From Minisyncoccia bacterium (GTDB lineage Bacteria; Patescibacteriota; Minisyncoccia; Phycocordibacterales; UBA918), in the NCBI GenBank assembly GCA_041738755.1, contig JBGSPE010000003.1:62602-126601 (forward strand): DNA of 64,000 nt. Direction: 5' to 3'. A program made the translations under genes and the position numbers. The notes under the pieces are model-generated. The model did not search any database and was not told the DNA's origin. It saw only the letters and a list, made by a program, of their open reading frames with translations. Positions within the stretch are counted from its first letter, which is position 1, and every line of letters begins with the position of its first letter. Below are positions 316 through 44,500 of this stretch, piece by piece.

Positions 316-645
316 TTGATGCGACACATGCGCGAAGCTACTCTCGTATTCGACCCAAGAATCTCACACCCGCTATATAAGAAGCATAAGGTAGATAAGG
401 TTAACGTCATTCGAGTCTTGTCGAGCGAACGTTTAACAGATGAAGAAAGTTGCCTCTTCGAAAACAAAGCCAAAATAATATTTCCAGATCATTTTCTCGA
501 AATAGTCAGGTTCAACGAACAGACTGTCTATCTTGCGTTCAATTTTTCTGATGACGCTATCCTGGATAAATCTTTCCAAAGTTTACTTGTAAATTTTCAC
601 GGCTGGTTAAAACTTGCACGAATTGAGGATTTCGTATTGGCTTAG
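316..645 (+). CDS. Hypothetical protein, 109 aa
   Basis: ORF with GGAGA 9 nt upstream of the ATG; a hairpin plus T-run terminator follows; no recognisable motifs. Confidence 0.4.
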   Translation: MMRHMREATLVFDPRISHPLYKKHKVDKVNVIRVLSSERLTDEESCLFENKAKIIFPDHFLEIVRFNEQTVYLAFNFSDDAILDKSFQSLLVNFHGWLKLARIEDFVLA

Positions 646-652
646 TTCTACT

Positions 653-688
653 AAAAATCGCGCCGAGCAATCGACGCGGTTTTTCTTT
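653..688 (+). terminator. Rho-independent terminator after ORF 316..645
   Basis: Stem tcgcgccga(658-666)/tcgacgcgg(671-679) with a GCAA loop, followed by TTTTCTTTT. Confidence 0.45.
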
Positions 689-739
689 TCCCTAAACATA
701 TCTGTTAACAGCTATGTTTAGCACACGGTGTTTGACTGA

Positions 740-952
740 TTTAATACTCATGCTACGATGTATTACATCAGAGATTGTAGTGGCCACCAACCATTAGTTT
801 ATGTATCATATATGATACATAAATGGACTACTTCCCTAATCTGAACTAATGAGCGCTGTGCAGGCATACCTGCCAGAATCTCGGTGGAACCGCGGTCTAG
901 ATCGCCCGAGTGAGTATACGAACCTTCGTGTATTCACTCGGGCGCTTTTTTA
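740..952 (+). promoter_or_regulatory. T-box riboswitch leader of thrS (antiterminator/terminator switch); the 5' boundary is approximate
   Basis: AATCTCGGTGGAACCGCGG at 877-895 matches the T-box consensus AATTAGGGTGGTACCGCGG. Antiterminator: CUCGG(880-884)/CCGAG(906-910) and GCGG(892-895)/UCGC(902-905), leaving a 7-nt UGGAACC bulge. The competing terminator stem is cgcccgagtga(903-913)/tcactcgggcg(934-944) followed by CTTTTTT. Stem-III-like hairpin GCAGG CAUA CCUGC at 861-874. ACC-A (Thr codon plus purine) at 786-789 and 790-793. Possible promoter TTGACT (733-738)/TACGAT (755-760). Confidence 0.55.
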
Positions 953-1106
953 TTCACTTTATTAACCTAACCACAAAGATTTTCAAAATTAGATAACGTA
1001 CAAGGCATGGAGAAAAAGTTTTTCGAGTCGTATCAGGCATACGGTGAGAAAAACTTTGAGGCTCCATAACGCAGTAATTTGCTAATTTTGAAAATCATCA
1101 CACTTT

Positions 1107-2858
1107 ATGTCAGAACAACTAAACAATAAACGACACACACTAGCCCACCTCTTGGCTGCGGCGGTCATTGAAACGTATCCCCATGCAAAATTGACCCTTG
1201 GTCCGGCTATCGATACGGGCTTCTACTACGATATCGACTTCGCTGAGGGAGATGTACCTGGTGACAGTGATCTCAAAGACCTCCAAAAGTTGATGAAGAA
1301 ACTCATCAACAAATGGACTGAATTCACTCACGAAGTCGTGACGGTAGATCGTGCTCAAGAAGTCTTTGCTGGTAACCAGTACAAGCTTGAATTGATTGAT
1401 GAAATTGATTCACGAGGCGAGACGATTACCCTCTACACAGTCGGTGGATTTACCGACCTTTGTCGGGGTGGACACTGTAACAATCCGAAAGAAGACATTA
1501 GTACTGATGCCTTTAAGCTCGACAAAATTGCGGGAGCCTACTGGCGCGGAGATGAAAAAAACCCAATGCTCACTCGTATCTACGGCATCGCATTTGATAC
1601 AAAAGAAGAACTTGAAGGCTACGAAAAGCAACTTGAAGAAGCAAAAGCCCGTGACCATCGTAAACTTGGGAAAGAACTTGACCTCTTTACCTTCTCTGAT
1701 TTGGTCGGACCTGGTCTTCCGCTCTTCACTCCGCGCGGTACGATGATGCGTGATCTTATCGTCGATAAAATCATGACTATTCAAGCCAAATACGGCTATC
1801 AAAAAGTCACCATCCCTCACATAACCAAAAGTGACCTCTACAAAACCTCTGGTCATTGGGAAAAGTTTGGTGATGAACTTTTCAAAGTAAAAGGTCAATC
1901 TGACGCTGAGTTTGTCATGAAGCCTATGAACTGTCCGCATCATACCCAAATTTTCGACAGCCGACCGCGCTCATACAAAGAACTTCCTATTCGCTATGCT
2001 GAAACAACCATGGTCTACCGGGATGAACAAGCCGGTGAATTGATTGGGTTAGGGCGCGTTCGAAGTATCACACAAGATGACGGTCACGTGTTCTGTACTG
2101 TTGATCAGATTGACCAAGAAGTCGAAAATATCGTTCGAGTGATACAAGAATTCTACACCTCACTAGGAATGTACAATGATGGTAATTTCTGGGTTTCACT
2201 CTCTACTAGCGATCCAAACAAGCCGGAAGACTATCTTGGTGATAGAGAAAACTGGAAAAAAGCTGAGACTATGCTCGAAGCAGTTGCTACGAGACTCAAC
2301 TTACCGTATAAGCGGATTGAAGGTGAAGCTGCATTTTACGGACCAAAACTCGACTTTATGTTCAAAGACGCCATTGGTCGTGAACGTCAGCTGGCGACCG
2401 CTCAGCTTGATTTTGTGATGCCGGAGCGTTTCTCTCTTTCCTACACAGATAACACTGGAGTGAAGCAAACACCCGTCATGATTCACCGAGCAATCGCGGG
2501 GTCACTCGAACGGTTTATGGCTATCATGATTGAGCACTTTGCAGGTAACTTCCCGCTTTGGCTCTGCCCAACACAACTAGCCATCATCCCCGTAGCAGAT
2601 ACACATACCCCGTACGCGCGAGAGATTGCAGCCCATTTGAAAAACCATAATTTCCGGATTGAACTTGATGAATCAAACGAAAGTATGGGTAAGAAGATTC
2701 GCACAGCTAAGAAGGACCGACTCCCCTACTTCATCGTCATCGGTGATAAGGAAGTGGAGAATAAGACCGTTACTCTTGAATCACGTGATACCGGTGAGTC
2801 AGTAACTCTGAACTTAGAGGAACTAATAGAGAAACTGACTGCAGAAAATACCAGGTAG
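1107..2858 (+). CDS. thrS: Threonyl-tRNA synthetase, short form lacking the N-terminal TGS domain but retaining the editing domain
   Basis: 583 aa. N-terminus 'RHTLAHLLAAAVIETYPHAKLTLGPAIDTGFYYDIDF' is editing-domain-like; class II core motifs and anticodon-binding C-terminus recognised by eye. Confidence 0.9.
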   Translation: MSEQLNNKRHTLAHLLAAAVIETYPHAKLTLGPAIDTGFYYDIDFAEGDVPGDSDLKDLQKLMKKLINKWTEFTHEVVTVDRAQEVFAGNQYKLELIDEIDSRGETITLYTVGGFTDLCRGGHCNNPKEDISTDAFKLDKIAGAYWRGDEKNPMLTRIYGIAFDTKEELEGYEKQLEEAKARDHRKLGKELDLFTFSDLVGPGLPLFTPRGTMMRDLIVDKIMTIQAKYGYQKVTIPHITKSDLYKTSGHWEKFGDELFKVKGQSDAEFVMKPMNCPHHTQIFDSRPRSYKELPIRYAETTMVYRDEQAGELIGLGRVRSITQDDGHVFCTVDQIDQEVENIVRVIQEFYTSLGMYNDGNFWVSLSTSDPNKPEDYLGDRENWKKAETMLEAVATRLNLPYKRIEGEAAFYGPKLDFMFKDAIGRERQLATAQLDFVMPERFSLSYTDNTGVKQTPVMIHRAIAGSLERFMAIMIEHFAGNFPLWLCPTQLAIIPVADTHTPYAREIAAHLKNHNFRIELDESNESMGKKIRTAKKDRLPYFIVIGDKEVENKTVTLESRDTGESVTLNLEELIEKLTAENTR

Positions 2859-2946: not shown

Positions 2947-5900
2947 TTATATCTCTTCCAATTCCGCAACCACTTCAATATTCACACTATCGGTAAATGT
3001 CGTATTAGTCACCGGCTCAGTACAACTGAAGGTAAAGAGGCTCTTAGCATTAATCGGACCACTACCCTCAGTACCACTGGTACCGCTTGGATTCCGGTCT
3101 ACCCCTGGTCCATAGACCCGGCAATTCATTGGGTAGGTGGCTGCCGTAGACCACGTCAATGTAATAGTTTCACCTTGTTTGACTCGATACCTATCAGCAG
3201 TAAGATTTAAACCAGGATCTGGTGGCGGAATTGTAAAGGTAAAGACACGACTGTTATCCCCTTCATTAGTTTCAGTTACGGTATTTGTACTATCGACGAA
3301 GACTCTTGTCCGCGCAGCACCAAATGGTATTGAGCCAGTTACCCGTTCTGTTCGATTAACCGCTGAACCAACAGTGAGTAGTCCAAGTGAACCAGTAGTA
3401 GTGAACTCATACCCATCACCACTACGGTCAAACTGTAATTCGTAGTTAGCGCTAGCTAACGTATCACTTTCACCGTCGTTTCTCGTTTGAAATACAATAT
3501 CAATATAGTCATACATTCCTGTCACACTATTAAACGTTGGTGAAAGATTGTACGTAATATCTGGTTGGGTAAGATTTGGATAATTTCGAGTGGTAACAGT
3601 AACCGTCCTGTCGGTAGTACCACCAAGACCTGTACACGAAACAGTATAGACGGCGTTCGTTCCTGGAACTGGTGGTGTGACTGAATTGTCAGTCCCATTT
3701 TCGTTAGGCGACCCTCCGGTTGAGAAGCCACTACCAGCCGTTGCGGTACAACTTGAAGCACCAACACTCGTCCAGCGCAGCGCTATGGTATCACCAGGAT
3801 TTATCGTTGGATTGCTACTTAACCAAGCTCCAGTGCCGTTCACTCTTGTTTGTAGGGTCACACTCGGTGGTGGTGGTAAAGTGATGGTTACGGTGTGATT
3901 TGTACAGGCAGCTGGAAGTGTATTACCGATATCACGAGCACACGCTCTCACCGTATATGTCCCATCGGCTAACCACGTATTGTTAATTGTCCATTGCTGA
4001 CCTGTGGTGTATGTCGGTGATGGAGATGGAGTATCGTTTGATCCATTATTTTGCCAATCAATCGTGTAGTAGAACTGCGACGTTGGATTTGGATGTGTAG
4101 ACACAATTCTAAACTGCACTGGAGTACCAGCTACTCCAGCTGTACTTGCAGCTGGGAAGTTTACTGTTGGAGCATTGGGGGCTTGGGCATTTAAGTTTAC
4201 CTGAACGGTATCTGATTCGGTACCACACGTCAGAATATATGGGCTACTTTGTGTAATTGTCGCACCCACACTTCCATTTGCAGTGACAATTTGTGATCCG
4301 GCAGTTATACCAGCGCCACTTAACGTACACGTCGGTGTAGCACCAGTACTTGTCCACGTTAAACTCACCCCAGTGTTGTAATTCACCGATACCGGACCAT
4401 TAGACCCGTTGACCCTTAGGTCAGGCAATGTTGGACACGAAGCAGGAGTAAACCGTGTCACGGTGGAAGAATTTGGAGACTGTCCCGCCGCGTTGTTAGC
4501 TCGAACATAGAATGAATATGAAGTGTTCGTGCCTCCAGTGAAGGTGTAGTTTGAACCACCTGAGTTTGCGATAAATGTACCGTTACTGTAGTACACACTG
4601 TAACTAGTAGCTCCCGGCACATCATTCCAATCAAGGAAGAGCTGGTTAGTACCACAGGCCTGTGGAGTGGCGGTGAGGCCGGTTGGTGTAGCAGGCGCAC
4701 AGATAGTTGGCGTCGTCGCCGTTACGGTAGAAGAGTTTCCTGATTGAACTGAAGCTGCGTTATTCGCTCGGACATAAAACGAATAGCTGGTGTTTGGTGA
4801 CCCTGTAAAGGTGTAATTTGAACCAACTGAATTACCAACGAAGGTACCGTTACTGAGATACACACTGTAGCTGGCTGCATTAGTCGAATCATTCCAATCA
4901 AGGAAGAGTTGGTTGGTACCACAGGCTTGTGGTGTAGCAGTAAGACCAGTTGGCGTAGTTGCTGCTGGAGGTGCGCACACAGCTGGAGCATTGGCAGTCG
5001 CGAAGGCTGACCAGGCAGAGTTTCCAACAGCATTTTTAGCTCGGACTTGGAAGTCGTAGGTGGATCCAGGATTAAGTCCAGTGATAGTTCGGGGACTCGT
5101 GACATCATTCACTATTGTCCAACCACCACTTGGAGAAAGGCGGAACTGAATATCGTAGCCGGTTGCACCAGTTACATTTGACCAAGAAACAGTGACTGCT
5201 CCTGTGCCACAAGAGCCCGGAGTGGCGGTGGGGGTTGCAGGTTGTGCTGGTGCAGTCGCACACGCAACTGGCGCAGTCGCATTCATCGCTCCTGAGTAGG
5301 CAGATGAACCAGCACTATTAGTCGCTCGCACCGTATATGACTGGGCAGAGCCATTGGCTAGACCAGTGTGACTAAATGAAGTACTTGGTCCATCGTAGAT
5401 GACAGTACCTGCACCGTTGCGGAGCTGGTAGCTGGTGGCTCCAGAGACGGCTGACCAGGAGACATTTATCTGACCAGTACCACAAGCTTGAGGGGTGGCG
5501 GTAGGGGTGGCTGGGGTAGCTGGGGTAGCTGGGGTCACGGTAATAGTTGTCCAACCACTACAGTTATTTCCCTCATTAGACTCTGTCACTTCAGAACTTA
5601 TGTCCGCACAGACTTGTAGATAATAAGTACCAGGCCCTGAAAAGGTGTAGTTTACGTTGGCGTTTGACTCACTATAACCAGCTGGAAAACCAGCTGGAAT
5701 ACCACTCCTAAACAAAGCTGGCTGACTTGGTAAGCCTCCATTTCCGGCATTAGTATCAGTGTCAAACCAAAATCGAACATTGAAAGGTGCGCCGGTTGAA
5801 AGAGTACCTTGGTTTCGTACAAGCGCACTATAATTGGTTGCGCTACCCGGATTGACTGACGTTGCCCCACTGACTGAGGGGACGATAACATCTGACTGAC

Positions 5901-8328
5901 CACAACTACTTGGAGCCGTTGCGCTCCTTGCTCCTGAGTACGCAGATGAGCCGCCAGCGTTAATGGCTCGCACCGTATATGACTGGGCAGAGCCATTGGC
6001 TAGACCAGTGTGACTAAATGAAGTACTTGGTCCATCGTAGATGACGGTACCGGCACCGTTGCGGAGCTGGTAGCTGGTGGCTCCAGAAACAGCATTCCAA
6101 GAAACGTTTATTTGACCAGTTCCACATGAGCCGGGAGTAGCGGTAGGGGTGGTGGGGGTGGTTGGTGCACAAATATTTGGTGATGTCCGACTTATCGAGG
6201 CTGATTCCGCTCCCGCTCCAGCTCCATTCCAAGCTCGCACTCGGTAGGTATACAGGGAATTAGGTAACGGTGCAGTATGGGTGAATGAGGTGACATTACC
6301 GACGTTTTGCCATGCTCCATTAATTTGAATATCATATCCAGACGCTCCGGCAACACTGTTCCAGGTAAGGTTAATTTGATTCGTACCACAGGAGCTGGGA
6401 GTGCCGTTAAGGCCAGTTGGGGTGGCGGGTGGACAAACATTTGGTGTTGTTGCATTAACAGAACCTGAGTAGGCAGATGAACCAGCACTATTAGTCGCTC
6501 GCACCGTATATGACTGGGCTGAGCCATTAGCTAAACCAGTGTGACTAAATGAAGTACTTGGTCCATCGTAGATGACAGTACCTGCGCCGTTGCGGAGCTG
6601 GTAGCTGGTGGCTCCAGAGACGGCTGACCAGGAGACATTTATCTGACCAGTACCACAAGCTTGAGGAGTTGCGGTAGGGGTGGTGGGTTGTAAAGGTGTG
6701 ACTGGGCAGTTAGTTTGATACCGTGCAATCATAGTAGTGACACCATTTATGAATGTTGTTTCTACACACTGATTGGGAGGAAAAGCGGCAAGCCAAGTAA
6801 AGTAATCCATTACAGGTAGTGGGGTTCTAATATCAGGAGTCCATCCTCGGCCGACACATGTATCACCCGCGGTTGTGATAGCAATACTACTAATTCCAGG
6901 ATTGGCACAAACATCAAACGTAATAGGTGGGACTGGAGGTCCCGGAATATCGATAGGATGAGCATTGACTACCGAAAATGGTACTACACTGGCCCCGAGC
7001 ATACACAGTACTATCAGTAGTGGCCCCAGACTGTCGGGAGCTTTCGTGTTGTGGCGAAGTGTATACTCACGACGATGGACAATCCAAACCAGGATAAGTA
7101 ACACGAGTAATAAAGCTGCACCACCATAAAGAAATAAAGGATTGAATATAATTCCCTCAGAGAGTGTTATGTTTTCAGACGGTTCTTGGTGACACGCTCC
7201 ACCCAATACGTCACAGTCATACGTTACTGTTTCTTGCGACACCGGTACACCATCTCTTTCAATTGTGGATGTTAGCAAAATAGCATTCTGATTGGTAGGA
7301 GGCACAAAACTTGGTATACTCGCATCAGAAATACTATCCCCTGCAACTGACGCTACCGTTAATCCGGCAGGATCAGTCAGTTCAAATGATAAACGATACG
7401 GTGTAAGTTCAGCCGTGGCTGGCGTAGCAATACAGTAAAATAGGTCTGCTGACTGATTAGCAGACAACGGAATATCACGTACGCCAGCAACCAATATTCG
7501 TGGGTCAGGTGTAGCTTTTAGAAACTGAAAGTCCTGTATTGACTTAGCTCCCCTATCATCAATAATTGCATTAACTAAAAATTCTTTATCACTAGTGGGC
7601 TTGGTAGTATACGTAATCACTTCTTCACTATTAGCGGCGATGGTAAGGATACTCGATTTAGTATCAAGCCGACTGTCTTCAGTCGGGTATGGTCCCAGAT
7701 ACTGATTCCACTGTATCGGAACAACTTTGTCTTCATCTGTTGCGTTGATTACTGCAACGCTTATAGTTACACTCTGATCATCGGTGATTATTGTTTGATC
7801 AAAACTCTCATACGGTTGACCATTAATCTGCATCGTGTTGTGATCAAGCTGTACCACCTCACTTTCTGAGGCAATTGTAAAACGTGGACCATATCCCAAC
7901 CCTATTGCCGTCTCACCCATGAATGACATTACGTACTGGATAGCGTAATCACCCATTGGCTGATTTTCAGGTACCACCCATTCGTCAGCAAAAGAATACT
8001 TGCCTTGTGCCGGTAGTATGATATTTTCTTCGACCACATAGGTATCGACTAATCGCAACGATTGATCTTCCCGAATTTGAAACACTCTTGCTCGCAGTTC
8101 TGCAACGGGGACCGTGATGCTATTTTGATTTTCAATACTTCCAGTGAATCCAACCGGGGTTTGTGGTACCCCGATGGCTACCGTACTAGTGACAGCCAGT
8201 TTAATATTAGTCAGTGCAAAGTTGTCAGTACAGAAGAGGTTATTACGAGCGGCAGGAGTTTCGGTTGGTGCCTGTTGTGCGAATATTGTACTCACTGAAG
8301 AGAAAAGCAACATAAGTACAAGGGTCAC
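2947..8328 (-). CDS. Giant secreted surface protein (1793 aa) with a signal peptide, an N-terminal ~420-aa module, an internal two-helix membrane hairpin, ~6 fibronectin-III-like modules and CARDB-like motifs
   Basis: Signal peptide MTLVLMLLFSSVSTIFAQQ. Near-identical Fn3-type modules (TPTATPQACGTGQINVSWSAVSGATSYQLRNG...) occur three times, plus two copies of a second module. CARDB-type 'TESNEGNN'/'TETNEGDN' motifs. Internal LFLYGGAALLLVLLILVWIV-HRREYTLRHNTKAPDS-LGPLLIVLCMLGASVVPFSVVNA. Confidence 0.75.
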   Translation of the reverse strand: MTLVLMLLFSSVSTIFAQQAPTETPAARNNLFCTDNFALTNIKLAVTSTVAIGVPQTPVGFTGSIENQNSITVPVAELRARVFQIREDQSLRLVDTYVVEENIILPAQGKYSFADEWVVPENQPMGDYAIQYVMSFMGETAIGLGYGPRFTIASESEVVQLDHNTMQINGQPYESFDQTIITDDQSVTISVAVINATDEDKVVPIQWNQYLGPYPTEDSRLDTKSSILTIAANSEEVITYTTKPTSDKEFLVNAIIDDRGAKSIQDFQFLKATPDPRILVAGVRDIPLSANQSADLFYCIATPATAELTPYRLSFELTDPAGLTVASVAGDSISDASIPSFVPPTNQNAILLTSTIERDGVPVSQETVTYDCDVLGGACHQEPSENITLSEGIIFNPLFLYGGAALLLVLLILVWIVHRREYTLRHNTKAPDSLGPLLIVLCMLGASVVPFSVVNAHPIDIPGPPVPPITFDVCANPGISSIAITTAGDTCVGRGWTPDIRTPLPVMDYFTWLAAFPPNQCVETTFINGVTTMIARYQTNCPVTPLQPTTPTATPQACGTGQINVSWSAVSGATSYQLRNGAGTVIYDGPSTSFSHTGLANGSAQSYTVRATNSAGSSAYSGSVNATTPNVCPPATPTGLNGTPSSCGTNQINLTWNSVAGASGYDIQINGAWQNVGNVTSFTHTAPLPNSLYTYRVRAWNGAGAGAESASISRTSPNICAPTTPTTPTATPGSCGTGQINVSWNAVSGATSYQLRNGAGTVIYDGPSTSFSHTGLANGSAQSYTVRAINAGGSSAYSGARSATAPSSCGQSDVIVPSVSGATSVNPGSATNYSALVRNQGTLSTGAPFNVRFWFDTDTNAGNGGLPSQPALFRSGIPAGFPAGYSESNANVNYTFSGPGTYYLQVCADISSEVTESNEGNNCSGWTTITVTPATPATPATPTATPQACGTGQINVSWSAVSGATSYQLRNGAGTVIYDGPSTSFSHTGLANGSAQSYTVRATNSAGSSAYSGAMNATAPVACATAPAQPATPTATPGSCGTGAVTVSWSNVTGATGYDIQFRLSPSGGWTIVNDVTSPRTITGLNPGSTYDFQVRAKNAVGNSAWSAFATANAPAVCAPPAATTPTGLTATPQACGTNQLFLDWNDSTNAASYSVYLSNGTFVGNSVGSNYTFTGSPNTSYSFYVRANNAASVQSGNSSTVTATTPTICAPATPTGLTATPQACGTNQLFLDWNDVPGATSYSVYYSNGTFIANSGGSNYTFTGGTNTSYSFYVRANNAAGQSPNSSTVTRFTPASCPTLPDLRVNGSNGPVSVNYNTGVSLTWTSTGATPTCTLSGAGITAGSQIVTANGSVGATITQSSPYILTCGTESDTVQVNLNAQAPNAPTVNFPAASTAGVAGTPVQFRIVSTHPNPTSQFYYTIDWQNNGSNDTPSPSPTYTTGQQWTINNTWLADGTYTVRACARDIGNTLPAACTNHTVTITLPPPPSVTLQTRVNGTGAWLSSNPTINPGDTIALRWTSVGASSCTATAGSGFSTGGSPNENGTDNSVTPPVPGTNAVYTVSCTGLGGTTDRTVTVTTRNYPNLTQPDITYNLSPTFNSVTGMYDYIDIVFQTRNDGESDTLASANYELQFDRSGDGYEFTTTGSLGLLTVGSAVNRTERVTGSIPFGAARTRVFVDSTNTVTETNEGDNSRVFTFTIPPPDPGLNLTADRYRVKQGETITLTWSTAATYPMNCRVYGPGVDRNPSGTSGTEGSGPINAKSLFTFSCTEPVTNTTFTDSVNIEVVAELEEI

Positions 8329-24084: not shown

Positions 24085-24157
24085 AGCCGCCTGTCAGGCT
24101 CGAACTGACGACCTACGCGTTACAAATGCGTTGCTCTACCAACTGAGCTAAGGCGGC
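24085..24157 (-). tRNA. tRNA-Thr (anticodon UGU), CCA not encoded, discriminator U73
   Basis: Folded by hand as a cloverleaf: acceptor GCCGCCU/AGGCGGC, D-arm GCUC-AGUUGGUA-GAGC, anticodon loop UUUGUAA, variable AGGUC, T-arm GUCAG-UUCGAGC-CUGAC. There is one A31-C39 mismatch. Confidence 0.8.
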
Positions 24158-38587: not shown

Positions 38588-41500
38588 TTAGATATCTGCG
38601 CCTCCCCCGCTACCACCACCTGACGCTTGGTTGTAGACTCGAACCTGGATTTCATCCAAGCTAAAGACACTTGTCTGATCAGCAGTTAATCTCACTCTGA
38701 AATTTGTATTACTAAATTCTGCTACAGACCATGGTGTTCGACCCCACAAGTCTGACGGTCCGCCCGCAGTCAAAACCACATCCGAACTGGCGACATTAGT
38801 TAACTCTTTGGTATCAGTCCATGATGAGCCACCATCCCATGACAACTGAGCGGAGAGTATAGCGGTTGGATTTGAACTTCTTATCTCCAATTTTATTTCA
38901 ATACCCTGGATAGTATTACCAGTATTTATTGGGAAACTATGATTTTGCCAAACTGAAGGATTAGTGTTATTGGCAATTGCACGCGTTTCATCAACCCCAT
39001 CATAAGAATTAGCAATATCTCTCCAACCACTACCTCCTGTTGGCCGTCTAAAATTTGGATCATTCCCAATCTGCTCACCCGGACCAGCCCCTCCACCAAC
39101 AACAATCCCGTCACCCACAGGTGCTTCTCCTCCAATATCACTCGCTCGTCCTCCCCCGCCACCGCGTGATTCAAATCGACTATGTTGCCTTGGACTCACA
39201 CTACCGAAGATATCTTGTACTCCATTTTCATCTTCAGCCACCACTCCACCAGGGTAGAGATTAATAGTCACGGCAGAGTCTCTTGGTGGAGCATTCCAGT
39301 CAGCTACTACGAGGTAATTTTGTGCACTTGAAGTACTAATAACAAAATCTTCATTGAACACAATTGTGCCAGTCTCTGACTCAGCATCAATTATCATAAC
39401 GCCAGTGCCAGCAATCACTTCATCACCAGCAAGCCCTCCATTAAACTCACCACTAGGCATTAAGTCTCTCACGAGTCGAATATTGGTAAAGTCTGCGGAA
39501 TCAATATTAGTTACACCACTCAAATCAAAAGTAAGACTGGTCAAAGTCGCAGTACCACTTTCAGGAATGAGTTTAAAAGCAAATAATTCCTCGTCAGTCT
39601 TGTTTTGGAAATTAAAGGCGTTACTCACCTGCCCCTGATCATGGTTTGCAATAGTGCTACTACCACTGATTGCCTCGTTTACAAAGAACCAATTAGTATT
39701 ATTGCCACCATCAACAGAACTAGTGGCCGAGATAGAAGTAGAAGCAAACGAATCCTTTACATCGACAAACTCTACATTAATTTGTGAGCCAGACACATCA
39801 AGCCCCCACGCTGTCCCACTTGCAGTAGAGCGAAGATATACTTCGTTACCAGCAGTACCAGCCAAATCGATATTTTGGATAGTACTGGTTGCTCCTGCCA
39901 AAAATGCCGCTGACGTACCGGGGAGCATCGTATAGGTATTTGTCACAGTTAGTGGTGCACCGTAGGTTACCGACTGAGTGGTGGAGCCATTTTGTGATTC
40001 GTTAGTAACAGTTAGATTATAGAATTCAAGCGTTCCTGTCGCTACCTGCGCTGCCACACCACCAAACACAACCGTACTCGTTGCCGGTTCAAAACTTCCC
40101 GCGTTTGTAAAGTCACCTAATATAGATAACTCATCTGTGACTTTGAGACTACCGTTTTGGGAAATTTGTACATCACTGGTTGAAGCGGTAACGATGTTGG
40201 CCGTCTGGCCAATGACTTGACGGTTATTTATAAGTGAATTCACCCCACCATCATCTCTAAATCCAACCACAACATATAATCCTTCTCCAAAGGTAACTCC
40301 AGTTGCAAATTGATCCCCAGCAGAACTCGTCAGAGATTGTGGACCCCAAGTAATACCATCGGAAGACGTTATCGCCGTAGGCACAAATGCTAACAGATCA
40401 AAATCAATTGTACTTCCAACAGCAATAAATTCGTTGTTACCATACTCCACATCATACAAGAAGCCAGCAAATCCCGGAGTCACACCAAGACTCCAGTCCG
40501 TCCCATTATTTGAATACATAATGACATCACCAGTTTCATCTGGCCCTAGTGCGCCCACCGCTACAAACTGACCATTTCCATAGGTGACGCTTTGCCAATC
40601 ATCATCGTTGCCAAGGGCCGATTGAGCTGTCCAATTGATGCCGTCTGGTGAGGTCATAATCCTAGTAGTACCCGTTGCTGCCACCGCCACAAAGAGGCCG
40701 TCACCGTAGGTTACCCCAGTCCAGGAATCATCATTGCCCGCTGCCGAGCGGTCAGTCCAAGTGACACCGTCGGATGAAGTATAGATACGATTTTCGGTAC
40801 TGACAGTGGTATCACAAACTTCACCAGTAAGTCCGCAAGATACCGCAACAAACAAACCATCTCCGTACGTAACGCTTTGCAAAGGAACCGAGGCAATAGT
40901 TTGAACTATCCACGTGATGCCGTCGGATGAGGTCATGACTCGGTCAGTACCTGGTCCATTACCAACCGCTACAAACTGACCATTGCCGTAGGTGACACCT
41001 GCCCAAGCGTCGTTATTTCCAGCAGCCGACTGAGCAGTCCAGGTTTCGCCATCGGGTGAGGTCATCACAGCATCTCCAACGCCAGTGGCGTCACCGACTG
41101 CCACAAACGTACCGTTACCGTAGGCGATATCTAACCAAGCATCATCATTATTTACCGCACTAATCGAATTCCAAGACGCACTGGCTTGAAATACACCATC
41201 CACCACCACATCATAGAGTCGATTGGTACCACTAAAATCACCTGTTAAATCGCTATCACTACCACTCAAATACAAGGTAGTGTTAGAAAAATCAATATCT
41301 CCGTTTTGGGTAAAATCTCCCGTGACGGTTAGTTCAGTGTGCGGATCCAAGGTTCCACTGCTGGAAATCGTAAGGTCAGTAACAGATACATTAGTAATGA
41401 AATCAATAGTACCAGTAACAGCGACATCACCAAGCTCTGGTGTTGCGACGGCAGTAGAGACGGTTTTGTTGCTACCGCTCAAGAACAATGTGCCGTCATT

Positions 41501-44500
41501 CAACAAACTGCCGTTACCTACTAAATCACCAGCTACTGAGAGTGATGTAGTACTTATAAGGGTAGTGTCAGGGGCAATAGTAAGATCGCTCGTTGAAGCC
41601 ACACCTATAGTAGCAATCCCGCCCTGTTCGTACATAACCCGCTGTGTACCGGCAATGGCAACAGCGACTGACGTTCCTGCTCCAGAGGAAACTGCTTCTA
41701 GTTGTACTCCCGTACCCGCAACTGTACTGGTTGCCCAAGAAATACCATCGAGAGATGTCATAACCTGAGCGTTATTCGAAACATCAACACCAACCGCCGT
41801 AAAATAGCCCTGCTCATATATAACGTCTTTCCATTGACCAACCGGAGCAGTCTGAGTTGTCCAGATGATGCCGTCAGGCGAGGTCATGACGTAGTCATCA
41901 CTACCACCACCCACAGCCACAAAGGTACCGTTACCGTAAGTAACACCTTGCCAGTTATCAGTGTCTCCGTCGGTTGCTTGGGCCGTCCAAGTAATACCAT
42001 CGGGAGAGGTCATAACAGCGTCTCCAAATTCGCCATTACCTACAGCCACGAAGGTGTCATTACCATATGCAGCATCACTCCAGTAATCATTGTTCCCCGC
42101 TGCGGTCGTAGTCGCCCAGCTGAGACCATTGGTTGAGTACATCACCACATCATCAGCAGCAACATTAAAACTAGACGGTGTGCCGACAGCCACATAGGTT
42201 CCATTCCCATACGTGACACCGAACCAGTTATCATTATCTCCCGCAGCACTTCCAGAAGTCCAATTGATACCGTCCGGTGAGACAGCTACCGATGGTGTAA
42301 GACCAACATACGGGATACCAACCGAAACAAACTGCCCACCTGCGTAAATGATATCAAGACCTAGATAAAGTCCAAATGGAGAGTCAGTCGTAGTGGTTGC
42401 CCATGATATACCATCCATTGAGTACATAATCTCATCATTAGAACTTAATCCACCAATTCCAACTGCGACAAAGGTATTGGTACCGTACGCGACACCGTAC
42501 CACTCTTCATTATTACCAGCTGCACTTTGGGTTACCCATCCATCTGTCCCAGTGGGGTCAATCACCACATCACCAAGTGTGTTACTGCCGCTAAAGTTAC
42601 CTGATAATTGCGGTAATGAACCTCCTACAATCAATGTCGTTTCAGAAAAATCTATTGAACCATTTTGTGTAAAGTCACCGTTTAACGTTAAGTTTGCGGT
42701 TGGAGCGAAGATAGTAGACGACGCCACAAGCAACGCCGCTGAAGTGGCGGTTGAACCAATTGATGTAGTTGCACCATCTACATCAAAGAGAACGTCTCCG
42801 TCATCATCAAAATCATAAAATGCTGCTGTACCAAGATCTATCTCCCCGGTCGTACTTGAGTGTTGCAATCGTACAGTATCCGACCACAAATCAATATCCA
42901 AAATATCAGTCTCACCATTAAGGTACGTCAGTGTAGTGGCACTGGTCGTAGCAGACTCATCGACAAAAAGAGTGAGCGGGGTGGTTTCATTAAAAGCGGG
43001 TGTACCCTCTGCGTACATCACCCGGTCGCCAGAAGAACTAACGGCTACAAATTGACCGTTGCCGTACGTGACACTCTGCCAGGAATCATTATTTCCTACC
43101 GCCGTACGAACAGTCCACGTCACACCATCCGGTGAAGTCATGACTCGGTCAAGACCAGTACCTACCGCGACAAAGAGCCCATTGCTGTACGTGACACTTT
43201 GCCACGAGTCATTATTTCCGGCGGCAGTCGAGGTGGCCCAGGTGATACCGTCAGTTGAGACCATGACGCGGTCACTCCCCGAATTTCCAACCGCTACAAA
43301 CAGACCGTTGCCGTACGTGACACTCTGCCAATTATCATTGTTATCAGCTGCTGATTGAACCGTCCAATTGATACCATTGGAGGAAGTCATGACGCGGTCG
43401 CCAGAGTCACCCACGGCTACAAAAAGACCATTAGCGTAGGTGACACTACGCCAGGAATCATTATCTCCAGCAGCTGTTGAGGTCGCCCAATTGATACCAT
43501 CGGAGGAAGTCATGACTACATCTTCCGTTCCGAGGTTTCGAACACCGACTGCCACAAAGAGACCATTTCCATAGGTCACACTTTGCCAACGATCATTATT
43601 TCCAGCCGCTGGACGAGCGGTCCAAGCAACACCATCAGATGAAGTCATGACACAATCATCGGCACTTCCATCCAAAACTGTACAACCTCCCACAGCCACA
43701 AAGAGACCATTGGCATAGGTGACACTACGCCACGTATCATTGTCCCCAGCGGCAGTTGAGGTGGCCCAATTAAAACCATCTACTGAAGTCATGACTCGGT
43801 CTGCTGTGATACCAACCGCTACATATAATCCATTATTATAAGTAACACTATTCCACATATCATTATCTCCAGCGGCGGTTGTTGTAGACCAACCACTTAG
43901 TCCTACTTCCTGATACTCTGGTAACGTAAGACTGAAGTTTCCAAAAGCATCAGTTGTGGTACTAAATGTATTCAACACATCGATACTACTATCTGCGTAC
44001 ATTACTCGGTCCCCTGAGTTACCGACCGCTACAAAACGATTGTTTGCAAAGGTAACAGCCAGCCAACCGTCATTATCACCGGCGGCAGGGCGGGCGGTCC
44101 AATTGATGCCGTCAGGAGAGGTCATGACGGTATCAGGACCTTCACCGACTGCTACAAATAATCCGTTGCCATACGTAACGTCATACCATAAATCGTCATC
44201 GCCAGCGGCAGACCGAACAGTCCAAGTAATACCGTCAAGAGAGGTCATGACTCCGTCAGTACTCGGACCAGTACCGACAGTCACAAACAGTCCGTTGCCA
44301 TAGGTGACACTTTGCCAAGTATCATTATTACCGGCAGCAGACTGCACGGTCCAGGTAATGCCGTTTGAGGAAGTAATGACACGGTCACCGAAACTACCAA
44401 CCGCTACAAACAGTCCGTTGCCGTAGGTGACACTTTGCCAGAAATCGTCATTTCCAGCCGCAGACTGCACGGTCCAGGTAATCCCATCAGATGAGGTCAT

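What the first reader, a model, noticed from the sequence alone, without database searches (positions are those of the whole stretch)
740..952. T-box riboswitch on thrS whose discriminator-sensing bulge matches the tRNA-Thr encoded in the same window
Read directly: a T-box sequence (AAUCUCGGUGGAACCGCGG, 877-895) forms an antiterminator (CUCGG/CCGAG and GCGG/UCGC) with a 7-nt UGGAACC bulge. The 3' strand of that antiterminator is also the 5' strand of a strong terminator (903-944 plus U6). In T-box systems the bulge UGGN pairs with the tRNA 3' NCCA end. Here N is A, and the tRNA-Thr(UGU) at 24085-24157 has discriminator U73, so the match is self-consistent. Thr codons ACC-A lie upstream at 786-793. 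T-boxes are mainly a Firmicutes feature, so finding one in a genome that otherwise looks CPR/Gram-positive-like is taxonomically interesting if that inference holds. The Stem I/specifier architecture looks short and non-canonical; the palindrome at 798-823 sits where Stem I/II would be.
Basis: partly seen in the sequence, partly recalled or inferred. Interest (0 to 1): 0.6.

Follow-up and report, generated by a model that had tools for sequence, protein, structure and literature searches.

The report
Miniature threonine T-box riboswitch in CPR
The leader of the threonyl-tRNA synthetase gene is a real tRNA-sensing T-box riboswitch, but its tRNA-reading half is a compact four-helix module not described for terminator-type T-boxes, and it recurs across one group of ultra-small (CPR) bacteria.

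Summary
Window 767-951 holds a promoter-proximal leader ending in a textbook T-box discriminator domain: Stem III, AAUCUCGGUGGAACCGCGG, and an antiterminator with a 7-nt UGGAACC bulge. A 19-bp terminator plus U6 overlaps that antiterminator, upstream of thrS (1107-2858).

The Rfam T-box model scores only 29.6 bits (gathering score 93) because about 86 positions of Stem I are missing. The organism is a Paceibacteria (CPR) bacterium.

I collected 39 related leaders, 38 from other genomes and metagenomes; thrS follows wherever the downstream gene was read, except L114. They share one architecture:
- the transcript starts at a short closing helix P1;
- invariant junction bases follow (GA-UUG ... 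CUAA);
- a 6-bp hairpin carries a 7-nt anticodon-loop-like loop, Y-U-ACC-A-A;
- then usually two variable hairpins;
- then the canonical discriminator.

ACC plus the following A are invariant (39/39), the stems covary, and the bulge is always UGGA. tRNA-Thr has U73 in the two genomes where I could read it.

The closest known relatives are the "ultrashort Stem I" T-boxes. Those are described only as translational ileS regulators of Actinobacteria that depend on a Stem II S-turn and a IIA/B pseudoknot. This family is thrS-specific, uses a terminator, occurs in CPR, and shows no recognisable S-turn or pseudoknot.

Verdict: a genuine T-box and a new variant of a known kind. No experiment supports it yet, and the tRNA-Thr(GGU) that ACC implies is not in the window.

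The parts
732..759 (+). Promoter-like site: TTGACT, 16-nt spacer with TG, then TACGAT. The predicted transcript start is about 766-767, 1-2 nt before P1.
Evidence: A -35/-10 pair is found in 37 of 39 family members.
768..772 (+). P1, 5' strand (UCAGA). It pairs with 840-844.
   Evidence: Covariation: CAGA/UCUG, CAGG/CCUG, CAAA/UUUG, AUCC/GGAU, ACCU/GGGU, GUCU/AGAC. The outermost pair is A-U in 16 and U-A in 11 of 39 sequences. RNAalifold alone did not predict P1.
773..777 (+). Junction GA (773-774) and UUG (775-777). UUG can pair with UAA at 837-839 (helix P1b).
   Evidence: In the 32-sequence block alignment, A774, U775 and U776 are invariant, and G773 and G777 are conserved in at least 90%. 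P1b is paired in 39/39, but only one of its three pairs varies, and on one side only (G-U in 37, A-U in 1, G-C in 1). P1b is therefore inferred.
778..796 (+). SL1, the ultrashort Stem I. The 6-bp stem is 778-783 with 791-796. The 7-nt terminal loop CCACCAA is at 784-790, with specifier ACC at 786-788 followed by A789 and A790.
   Evidence: All 6 pairs covary and 97% of cells are paired. RNAalifold predicts this hairpin independently. Loop composition in 39 leaders: position 1 is C in 32 and U in 6; position 2 is U in 34; ACC in 39/39; A in 39/39; A in 37/39.
797..824 (+). SL2, a variable hairpin. In the window it is a perfect 11-12 bp palindrome with loop UAUA.
   Evidence: Its sequence and length are not conserved in the family, and no AGUA/GAA S-turn is seen.
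825..835 (+). SL3, a small hairpin (GGA-CUACU-UCC) that abuts CUAA.
   Evidence: In 29 of 39 members the interval between SL1 and CUAA folds into exactly two hairpins, and in 31 of 39 the last hairpin ends within 2 nt of the end of that interval, which includes the C of CUAA.
836..844 (+). Junction CUAA (836-839) and the P1 3' strand UCUGA (840-844).
   Evidence: AA is invariant and CU is conserved in at least 90%. The Rfam model aligns this stretch to the F-box region CGUUA.
845..855 (+). Linker ending in the conserved AGNG (A852, G853, G855) just 5' of Stem III.
   Evidence: These columns are invariant in alignment A3. They match 'AGuG' in the Rfam T-box consensus.
856..876 (+). Stem III: 8 bp, U859 bulged, loop CAUA.
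   Evidence: Seven of 8 pairs covary in A3 and 8 of 8 in A4.
877..910 (+). T-box sequence (877-895) and antiterminator. A1 is 880-884 with 906-910. The bulge UGGAACC is 885-891, with UGGA at 885-888. A2 is 892-896 with 901-905.
   Evidence: The bulge is UGGA in every family member.
903..951 (+). Intrinsic terminator: a 19-bp stem at 903-944 and U6 at 946-951. It overlaps the 3' strands of the antiterminator.
   Evidence: An equivalent hairpin of -22 kcal/mol or stronger, followed by a U-run and overlapping the antiterminator, is present in 36 of 39 members.
1107..2858 (+). thrS, the regulated gene (threonyl-tRNA synthetase, 583 aa).
   Evidence: Pfam families on record for it: tRNA-synt_2b, HGTP_anticodon and tRNA_SAD (weak).
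24085..24157 (-). tRNA-Thr(UGU) with discriminator U73. It shows that tRNA-Thr of this organism ends in UCCA once CCA is added. It is not the isoacceptor that ACC predicts.

Best explanation
This is a transcription-attenuating T-box riboswitch that couples thrS expression to the charging level of tRNA-Thr.

Structure shown by sequence and comparison. The leader RNA starts at about 766 and folds its first ~80 nt into a compact decoding module. A closing helix P1 (768-772 with 840-844), extended by UUG/UAA, encloses three hairpins. The first hairpin (SL1, 778-796) has 6 bp and a 7-nt loop that looks like an anticodon loop (Y-U-NNN-A-A) but displays the Thr codon ACC (786-788).

Mechanism inferred from the established T-box mechanism.
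- The GGU anticodon of tRNA-Thr pairs with ACC as a loop-loop contact, with A789 stacking below it.
- If the tRNA is uncharged, its 3' end U73-C-C-A pairs with UGGA (885-888) in the bulge. This stabilises the weak antiterminator (-9.6 kcal/mol), so RNA polymerase reads through into thrS.
- If the tRNA is charged, the antiterminator is not held. The 19-bp terminator (-34.1 kcal/mol) forms and transcription stops at the U6 tract.

What is missing. The module has no distal Stem I platform that could dock the tRNA elbow, and no recognisable Stem II S-turn or IIA/B pseudoknot.

Speculation. The pre-organised anticodon-like loop, together with the invariant junction purines (G773, A774, A838, A839), may supply the extra stabilisation of the three-base-pair contact.
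For: - Discriminator half. Its sequence and fold are those of a T-box. RNAalifold recovers SL1, the base of Stem III, A1 and A2 without guidance.
- Context. The element lies directly upstream of thrS, between a promoter-like site and a strong intrinsic terminator.
- Family. A covariance model built from 27 leaders scores the window at 118.6 bits. It also finds members that were not used to build it, at 43-111 bits: L132, L131, L130, L112, L115, L085, L108, L084, L048, L028, L022, L045, L065 and L114. Rfam's T-box model gives these leaders only 30-43 bits.
- Covariation. On 39 sequences 96.5% of cells are paired and 24 of 32 pairs show changes on both sides. None of 500 shuffles reaches the observed values, and sliding the 3' partner drops pairing to 31-44%. 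SL1 and Stem III covary at every pair.
- Specifier. ACC and the following A are invariant in 39/39 while the flanking stem varies freely. The second ACC (790-792) is not conserved.
- Bulge. It is UGGA in all members. tRNA-Thr has U73 in the window and in L057.
- Control from a related genome. L043 (4830-5085) has a T-box upstream of aspS. Its short hairpin loop is CUGACA, containing the Asp codon GAC followed by A, and its bulge is UGGC, which fits G73 of tRNA-Asp. Codon and bulge thus change together with the gene.
- Terminators are present in 36 of 39 members.
- A conserved promoter places the RNA 5' end at P1.
Against: - No experiment exists.
- The Rfam score is far below threshold.
- The only tRNA-Thr in the window has anticodon UGU, which would leave a C-U mismatch at the third codon position. 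I could not show that this genome has tRNA-Thr(GGU): none of the loci scanned for tRNAs (110 of those fetched) carries one.
- For the window alone, the minimum-free-energy fold of 766-846 is -22.4 kcal/mol. It keeps P1 and SL2 but pairs the SL1 5' strand elsewhere. The proposed fold is 5.3 kcal/mol less stable.
- RNAalifold did not call P1.
- P1b (UUG/UAA) has almost no covariation (one pair varies on one side in 2 of 39), so it is only consistent with pairing, not demonstrated.
- In the block alignment A2 the CUAA anchor of five distant sequences was chosen to maximise P1. The covariance model later chose the same anchors for the four of them that it aligned (L028, L045, L048, L065).
- The absence of an S-turn or pseudoknot rests on motif inspection and single-sequence folding, not on a structural test.
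Confidence: 0.85

Rival explanations
1. It is an ordinary class I T-box whose long Stem I is present but too diverged for the model to align.
For: The Rfam model does align the whole region end to end, model positions 1-219.
Against: Only about 110 nt lie between the predicted transcript start and the T-box sequence. The promoter sits at a fixed 5-8 nt from P1 in most members, leaving no room for an ~90-nt Stem I. The alignment deletes 86 Stem I positions. Nothing resembling a K-turn, an AG bulge or a distal-loop platform is conserved in 39 leaders.
Confidence: 0.03
2. The riboswitch is functional, but its ligand is the tRNA-Thr(UGU) encoded in the window. This could be because it is the only tRNA-Thr, or because U34 reads all four ACN codons.
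For: That tRNA has the matching U73. No other tRNA-Thr is visible in the 64 kb. CPR genomes are reduced.
Against: ACC is strictly invariant in 39 leaders. T-box decoding modules studied so far favour a G34-C pair at the third position (review PMC7583486). A C-U mismatch would weaken a three-base-pair contact that here lacks the usual supports. The window is only 64 kb of the genome.
Confidence: 0.1
3. SL1 is a protein operator: ThrRS binds an anticodon-arm mimic in its own leader, as in Escherichia coli thrS, and the T-box-like 3' half is incidental.
For: SL1 has the dimensions of an anticodon stem-loop, and its loop follows the Y-U-NNN-R-A pattern.
Against: The loop displays the codon ACC, not a Thr anticodon (NGU). 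The G35 and U36 that ThrRS reads (established knowledge of the E. coli operator) are therefore absent. The 3' half is invariant T-box sequence with a covarying antiterminator, which is not incidental. The aspS leader of L043 changes both codon and bulge.
Confidence: 0.02
4. The element is a decaying relic that no longer regulates: constitutive termination or constitutive readthrough.
For: Relics exist in the family. L001 keeps only the decoding module, and L022 keeps only the discriminator half, with a promoter-like site in place of the rest.
Against: The window copy has every element intact and scores near the top of the family at 118.6 bits. Every position that is invariant in the family is intact in the window copy.
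Confidence: 0.04

Closest known systems
Ultrashort-Stem-I ('US', class II) ileS T-boxes of Actinobacteria (Sherwood, Grundy and Henkin 2015; structures of the Mycobacterium tuberculosis and Nocardia farcinica ileS T-boxes)
   Same: Stem I is reduced to a short hairpin that carries the specifier in its terminal loop. There is no double-T-loop platform, so no tRNA-elbow contact. tRNA is held at two sites only, the anticodon and NCCA. Stem III and the UGGN bulge are canonical. These properties are described in bioRxiv 10.1101/2023.02.28.530422, PMC7583486 and PMC12990946.
   Different: The known class is described as translational (Shine-Dalgarno sequestrator), restricted to ileS and tRNA-Ile, and found in Actinobacteria. 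It depends on a Stem II S-turn and a IIA/B pseudoknot docked beside the codon-anticodon helix. The window element uses an intrinsic terminator, regulates thrS and occurs in CPR/Paceibacteria. In place of the S-turn stem and pseudoknot it has two unconserved hairpins, and the whole module is closed by a helix P1 between the RNA 5' end and the sequence after CUAA.
Canonical class I transcriptional T-box (Rfam RF00230; for example Bacillus subtilis tyrS and thrS)
   Same: It shares the T-box sequence, the antiterminator/terminator switch, the AGNG linker and Stem III, pairing of UGGN with the discriminator, specifier ACC followed by a purine, and an aminoacyl-tRNA synthetase gene downstream.
   Different: It has no long Stem I. 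That means no K-turn, no internal specifier loop with an S-turn, and no AG bulge or distal-loop platform. The score is 29.6 bits against a gathering score of 93. Reviews state that transcriptional T-boxes generally require the long Stem I (PMC7583486, PMC11297988).
glyQS-type T-boxes
   Same: Both are transcriptional T-boxes that lack a Stem II S-turn and a IIA/B pseudoknot.
   Different: glyQS leaders keep the long Stem I with its elbow platform, and they rely on an all-G-C codon-anticodon helix (PMC7583486). The window element has neither.
aspS T-box of a related Paceibacteria genome
   Same: It comes from the same bacterial group, has a short hairpin with the codon in the terminal loop, and has an intrinsic terminator.
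   Different: It keeps a Stem II with AGUA/GAA S-turn signatures and a IIA/B pseudoknot (UCGG..CUACA..CCGA..UGUAG), as read directly. It has no GAUUG/CUAA junction or P1. It looks like the actinobacterial decoding module joined to a terminator.

Membership tests
T-box riboswitch (general; Rfam RF00230) | Conserved T-box sequence (AA..GGUGGNACCGCG) forming the 5' side of an antiterminator with a 7-nt bulge | tested here: met
   877-895 matches. A1, A2 and the bulge UGGAACC are the minimum-free-energy fold of 879-911. RNAalifold predicts A1 and A2 on 27 leaders.
T-box riboswitch (general; Rfam RF00230) | A mutually exclusive, more stable terminator (or sequestrator) that shares the antiterminator's 3' strand | tested here: met
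   Terminator at 903-944 plus U6, -34.1 against -9.6 kcal/mol. Present in 36 of 39 family members.
T-box riboswitch (general; Rfam RF00230) | The fourth base of UGGN is complementary to the discriminator base of the cognate tRNA | tested here: met
   UGGA against U73 of tRNA-Thr in the window and in L057. UGGA occurs in every thrS leader. The aspS leader of L043 has UGGC.
T-box riboswitch (general; Rfam RF00230) | A specifier codon for the amino acid of the regulated gene, followed by a purine | tested here: met
   ACC then A at 786-789, invariant in 39/39. The downstream gene is thrS.
T-box riboswitch (general; Rfam RF00230) | Long Stem I with a K-turn, an internal specifier loop and a distal interdigitated T-loop platform | tested here: not met
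   86 Stem I model positions are deleted in the Rfam alignment. Only a 19-nt hairpin is present, and the promoter leaves no room for more.
T-box riboswitch (general; Rfam RF00230) | Score at or above Rfam's gathering threshold | tested here: not met
   29.6 bits against 93 for the window. Seven relatives score 30.6-43.4 bits.
T-box riboswitch (general; Rfam RF00230) | Stem III preceded by conserved linker purines | tested here: met
   A852, G853 and G855 are invariant, and Stem III covaries at 7-8 of 8 pairs.
T-box riboswitch (general; Rfam RF00230) | Readthrough or binding that depends on uncharged tRNA | not testable with these tools
   This needs in vitro transcription or binding assays.
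Ultrashort-Stem-I (class II) T-box | Stem I replaced by a short helix with the specifier in the terminal loop, and no elbow platform | tested here: met
   SL1 has 6 bp and the 7-nt loop CCACCAA. It is supported by covariation and by RNAalifold.
Ultrashort-Stem-I (class II) T-box | Stem II with a conserved S-turn, followed by a IIA/B pseudoknot | tested here: not met
   SL2 and SL3 are unconserved plain hairpins. AGUA occurs in this region in only 3 of 39 members. The tail that would form helix IIB pairs with the RNA 5' end instead, forming P1. This is motif and fold inspection only, so a cryptic equivalent is not excluded.
Ultrashort-Stem-I (class II) T-box | Translational control through a Shine-Dalgarno sequestrator | tested here: not met
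   There is an intrinsic terminator with a U-run, and thrS starts 156 nt further on. One relative, L014, may be translational.
Ultrashort-Stem-I (class II) T-box | Regulates ileS and responds to tRNA-Ile | tested here: not met
   The gene is thrS and the specifier is ACC.
ThrRS translational operator (E. coli thrS type) | Anticodon-arm mimic displaying a Thr anticodon (NGU) next to the ribosome-binding site | tested here: not met
   The loop shows the codon ACC, not NGU, and lies more than 300 nt upstream of the start codon.

The most novel reading that the evidence does not exclude
The thrS leaders of Paceibacteria form a third structural class of T-box decoding domain. It is a cloverleaf-like four-helix junction of about 80 nt, closed by the RNA's own 5' end. 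One arm is an anticodon-stem-loop look-alike that presents the codon. The class works at the level of transcription termination without an elbow-docking platform, an S-turn or a pseudoknot. If this holds, the elements thought to make co-transcriptional tRNA capture fast enough are dispensable. It would also mean T-box regulation is widespread in CPR bacteria yet invisible to the Rfam model.
Probability: 0.55. Interest if true: 0.72.

Novelty: new variant of a known kind. Interest (0 to 1): 0.62.

Why it matters
Current reviews divide T-boxes into two groups. Transcriptional T-boxes need a long Stem I to grab the tRNA elbow quickly. Translational, ultrashort ileS T-boxes can do without it because a Stem II S-turn and a pseudoknot compensate (PMC7583486, PMC11297988, PMC12990946, bioRxiv 10.1101/2023.02.28.530422).

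A conserved terminator-type family with neither support would test that kinetic argument directly. It would also give a very small (about 145 nt) natural tRNA sensor for structural and engineering work.

The family shows that CPR/Patescibacteria use T-box control of aminoacyl-tRNA synthetases. About 33-37 of the 80 species-level thrS loci I retrieved carry a T-box, yet all eight leaders tested with Rfam's model (the window and seven relatives) score far below its threshold (30-43 bits against 93), so routine annotation misses them. In the paper library I could search, no paper mentions T-boxes together with CPR, Patescibacteria, Parcubacteria or Saccharibacteria.

Tried and rejected
1. Rfam at gathering threshold found no T-box. 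Only the permissive local scan shows it.

2. I searched for non-Thr members of the same junction architecture in metagenome contigs, using a pattern that excludes NCN codons. It returned 56 loci.
- None is a convincing non-Thr member.
- Most are unrelated T-boxes in which GATTG and CTAA occur by chance.
- Nine are further members of the thrS family, hit by chance.
- The architecture therefore appears specific to thrS.

3. I looked for K-turn and S-turn (loop E) readings of the GA-UUG/CUAA junction. By inspection neither consensus fits.

4. An alternative register, AGAUUG pairing with UAAUCU, was rejected. The compensatory changes in L004, L014 and L018 fit the P1 register, not this one (direct reading).

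5. The linker (C)AAU as a partner of AUUG is not conserved (L007, L016, L056).

6. tRNA-Thr(GGU) was not found in any locus scanned for tRNAs (110 of those fetched).

7. I asked whether UGA in the hairpin loop of the L089 trpS leader reflects a UGA=Trp genetic code. There are no in-frame UGA codons, and tables 4 and 11 give the same long ORFs. This remains unexplained.

8. The hairpin at 978-1096 is not a repeat within the window or in the loci fetched up to that point.

9. Sherwood 2015, Sherwood 2018, Vitreschak 2008 and Battaglia 2019 are not held in the library. Details of those papers are taken from later open-access papers or from memory.
Full report
**Observation.**
- A sigma-70-type promoter-like site (TTGACT at 732-737, a 16-nt spacer with TG, TACGAT at 754-759) precedes the element.
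- The T-box sequence AAUCUCGGUGGAACCGCGG lies at 877-895.
- Region 879-911 on its own folds into the T-box antiterminator as its minimum-free-energy structure (-9.6 kcal/mol). Helix A1 is 880-884 with 906-910, the 7-nt bulge UGGAACC is 885-891, and helix A2 is 892-896 with 901-905.
- A 19-bp hairpin at 903-944 (-34.1 kcal/mol), followed by U6 at 946-951, reuses the 3' strands of A2 and A1.
- thrS starts at 1107.
- The only tRNA gene in the window is tRNA-Thr(UGU) at 24085-24157 on the minus strand. It ends in ...AGGCGGC-U, so its discriminator is U73 and CCA is not encoded.

**Covariance-model test.** At Rfam's gathering threshold the window yields only the tRNA. A permissive scan of 600-1150 matches the T-box model RF00230 at 767-912, but with 29.6 bits against a threshold of 93 (E = 8.6e-5 for that small search). 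The alignment shows why. The 3' half fits well: linker AGNG, Stem III, T-box and antiterminator. In the 5' half, 86 model positions of Stem I are replaced by 15 bases. On this test alone the call would be weak, so I turned to comparative evidence.

**Organism and relatives.** Searching species-representative genomes with the ThrRS protein returned 80 loci. Most are labelled Paceibacteria, Parcubacteria or other Patescibacteria (CPR), some of them Saccharibacteria, with a few other labels, at 47-86% protein identity. I treated 36 of the 80, together with the window, as carrying GGTGGAACC within 600 nt upstream of thrS, always with A at the fourth bulge position. The same protein was found on one other short contig from a sequencing run.

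**Shared leader plan.** Printing the leaders side by side revealed one common plan. Window coordinates are given in brackets.
- The promoter -10 hexamer comes first.
- About 6 nt later comes the P1 5' strand, xCAGA (768-772).
- GA (773-774) and UUG (775-777) follow.
- SL1 is a hairpin with a 6-bp stem and a 7-nt loop (778-796).
- One or, usually, two variable hairpins follow (797-824 and 825-835).
- CUAA (836-839) comes next, then the P1 3' strand UCUGx (840-844).
- An A/U-rich linker ends in AGNG (845-855).
- Stem III (856-876), the T-box and antiterminator, and the terminator complete the leader.

**Structure tests.**
- *Block alignment A2.* On 32 sequences (5' block plus the CUAA block, no gaps) the named structure has 92.5% of cells paired and 12 of 15 pairs changed on both sides. 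None of 500 shuffles reaches the observed values, and sliding the 3' partner gives only 23-47% pairing.
- *Full-length alignment A3.* On 27 sequences 95.7% of cells are paired and 19 of 32 pairs change on both sides.
- *Covariance model R1.* Built from A3, it scores the window at 118.6 bits. It also finds leaders that were not in the training set, at 43-111 bits: eight metagenome contigs, one further metagenome contig (L114) and five more distant genomes.
- *Model-based alignment A4.* On 39 leaders 96.5% of cells are paired and 24 of 32 pairs change on both sides.
- *SL1 and Stem III* covary at every pair.
- *P1* shows CAGA/UCUG, CAGG/CCUG, CAAA/UUUG, AUCC/GGAU, ACCU/GGGU and GUCU/AGAC. Its outer pair is A-U in 16 sequences and U-A in 11.

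Three caveats apply to these tests.
- RNAalifold without guidance recovers SL1, the base of Stem III, A1 and A2, but not P1.
- The UUG/UAA extension (P1b) varies at only one pair, on one side, in 2 of 39 sequences, so it is merely compatible with pairing.
- In A2 the CUAA anchor of five distant sequences was picked to maximise P1. The model later chose the same anchors for the four of them that it aligned.

For the window sequence alone, the thermodynamic optimum of 766-846 keeps P1 and SL2 but mispairs the SL1 5' strand. It is 5.3 kcal/mol more stable than the comparative structure.

**The specifier.** In the 39 aligned leaders the SL1 loop reads as follows:
- position 1 is C in 32 and U in 6;
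- position 2 is U in 34;
- positions 3-5 are ACC in 39;
- position 6 is A in 39;
- position 7 is A in 37.

The Thr codon and the purine after it are therefore invariant, while the stem around them changes freely. The loop has the size and the Y-U-NNN-R-A pattern of a tRNA anticodon loop, but it carries the codon. The window copy has C rather than U at loop position 2.

A natural control comes from L043, a related genome, which has a T-box in front of aspS. A short hairpin there carries the loop CUGACA, that is GAC followed by A. The bulge is UGGC, which fits the G73 of bacterial tRNA-Asp (established knowledge). A terminator follows. Codon and bulge thus change together with the regulated gene.

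**The tRNA.** U73 is present in tRNA-Thr(UGU) of the window and of L057, matching the invariant UGGA. The anticodon that ACC predicts is GGU. No such gene is in the window or in any locus scanned for tRNAs, so the identity of the ligand isoacceptor is inferred, not shown.

**Level of regulation.** In 36 of 39 members a hairpin of -22 to -37 kcal/mol begins within the antiterminator's 3' strands and is followed by a U-run. The RNA therefore begins at P1. The unit is a self-contained promoter-leader-terminator cassette. It follows a separate terminator of the upstream gene at about 659-690.

**What is absent.** Between SL1 and CUAA, 29 of 39 members fold into exactly two hairpins, and in 31 of 39 the last hairpin ends within 2 nt of the end of the interval, which includes the C of CUAA. 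Together with P1 this makes a four-helix junction with almost no linker bases. These two hairpins vary in length and sequence, and the interval they occupy ranges from 20 to 85 nt. AGUA, the S-turn signature, occurs there in only 3 of 39 members. The tail that would form helix IIB of the IIA/B pseudoknot pairs with the 5' end instead. By contrast, the aspS leader of L043 does show AGUA/GAA signatures in a Stem II and a IIA/B-type pseudoknot (direct reading).

**Comparison with the literature.** Reviews and recent papers state the following (PMC7583486; PMC11297988; PMC12990946, March 2026).
- Transcriptional T-boxes generally need the long Stem I with its interdigitated T-loop platform.
- Shorter Stem I variants belong to translational T-boxes.
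[quoted passage not shown] Full-text searches that combined T-box with Candidate Phyla Radiation or Patescibacteria found nothing. In a looser search that included Parcubacteria and Saccharibacteria, none of the 15 papers listed mentioned either name. TBDB built its class II model from Actinobacteria only (PMC7778990). The library covers open-access papers only, so an earlier description elsewhere cannot be excluded.

**Interpretation.** The element works like a T-box and meets the family's functional hallmarks: the T-box sequence, a bulged antiterminator competing with a terminator, a UGGN-discriminator match, a cognate specifier followed by a purine, Stem III, and a synthetase gene downstream. 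It fails two structural hallmarks of class I (long Stem I, Rfam threshold). It also fails three of the four hallmarks of the ultrashort class II (S-turn and pseudoknot, translational control, ileS).

I therefore file it as a genuine T-box with a new variant of the decoding domain. How a three-base-pair contact suffices co-transcriptionally is unknown. My suggestion rests on general knowledge that tRNAs with complementary anticodons form unusually stable loop-loop complexes. The anticodon-loop-like preorganisation of SL1 may provide stability, with possible help from the invariant junction purines.

**Distribution.** Model R1 or the motif detects the leader in about 33-37 of the 80 species-level thrS loci. 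It is present in nearly all loci with ThrRS at least 73% identical to the window's, and is scattered below that. Two more distant loci, L078 and L079 (the latter labelled Saccharimonadales), carry a thrS T-box with a different core (GAGGUGGAACCUCCC). In L078 a hairpin loop contains ACCAA. Rfam's T-box model gives 30.6-43.4 bits to the seven relatives in which it found a match, out of eight loci tested.

Noticed in passing
window 951-1106: Between the terminator and the thrS start codon lies a long, nearly perfect hairpin at 978-1096 (-43.1 kcal/mol, z = -5.9; arms TTTTCAAAATTAG and CTAATTTTGAAAA). It encloses a 20-codon ORF at 1007-1069. It is unique within the window and among the loci fetched up to that point. 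Close relatives such as L002 lack it, so it looks like an insertion.
   Followed up: partly
L005, L008, L009, L011, L032, L077 (spacer between terminator and thrS): Many relatives carry structured insertions of 100-400 nt at the same place. They share the motif CAACGTCCTCG or its reverse complement, which suggests a small mobile or repeated element that inserts in either orientation.
   Followed up: partly
L043 4830-5085: A T-box lies upstream of aspS in a related Pacebacteria bin. It has a short hairpin with GAC in its loop, a Stem II with AGUA/GAA S-turn signatures, a IIA/B pseudoknot, the bulge UGGC and an intrinsic terminator. It looks like an actinobacterial-type ultrashort decoding module joined to a terminator. 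Rfam scores it at 35.2 bits.
   Followed up: partly
L089 3399-3505 and L124 506-614: Two short leaders, closely similar by eye, lie upstream of trpS on metagenome contigs. They differ in the hairpin loop (CUUGACA against AUUGGCA, that is UGA against UGG at the would-be specifier) and in the bulge (UGGC against UGGU). There is no sign of UGA recoding on the L089 contig. This is unexplained.
   Followed up: partly
L014 2824-3010: One family member has no U-run terminator. Instead a helix GAAUGAAC...GUUCAUUC ends at the thrS AUG, 68 nt after the T-box. This may be a switch to translational control within the family.
   Followed up: no
L001 2822-2897; L022 2795-2905: Partial leaders exist. L001 has the closest ThrRS (86% identity) and keeps P1 and SL1 but has no T-box or antiterminator. 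L022 keeps only Stem III, the T-box and the terminator, with a promoter-like TTGACA..TATAAT where the decoding module should be.
   Followed up: partly
L078 and L079, about 2790-2960: The thrS leaders of two more distant CPR genomes (L079 is labelled Saccharimonadales) have a variant T-box core, GAGGUGGAACCUCCC. In L078 a possible outer helix (AGUGUU with AACACU) encloses a hairpin GCGG-CCUCACCAA-CCGC. Model R1 does not detect them.
   Followed up: no
window 607-690: A weak Rfam match to the cyanobacterial sRNA PsrR1 (28 bits against a gathering score of 42) covers the terminator hairpin of the upstream ORF (CGCGCCGAGCAATCGACGCG flanked by A-runs and T-runs, apparently bidirectional). It is most likely a chance match to a terminator.
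   Followed up: no
window 2947-8328, 38588-45739 and 45743-53674 (minus strand): There are very large ORFs of 1793, 2383 and 2643 aa. The first contains many near-identical repeats (...CGTGQINVSWSAVSGATSYQLRNGAGTVIYDGPSTSFSHTGLANGSAQSYTVRA...).
   Followed up: no
window 785-789 and 883-887: CCACC in the specifier loop is complementary to GGUGG of the T-box, and single-sequence folding pairs them. Any ACC-specifier T-box has this property. Whether such self-pairing matters in the absence of tRNA is unknown.
   Followed up: no
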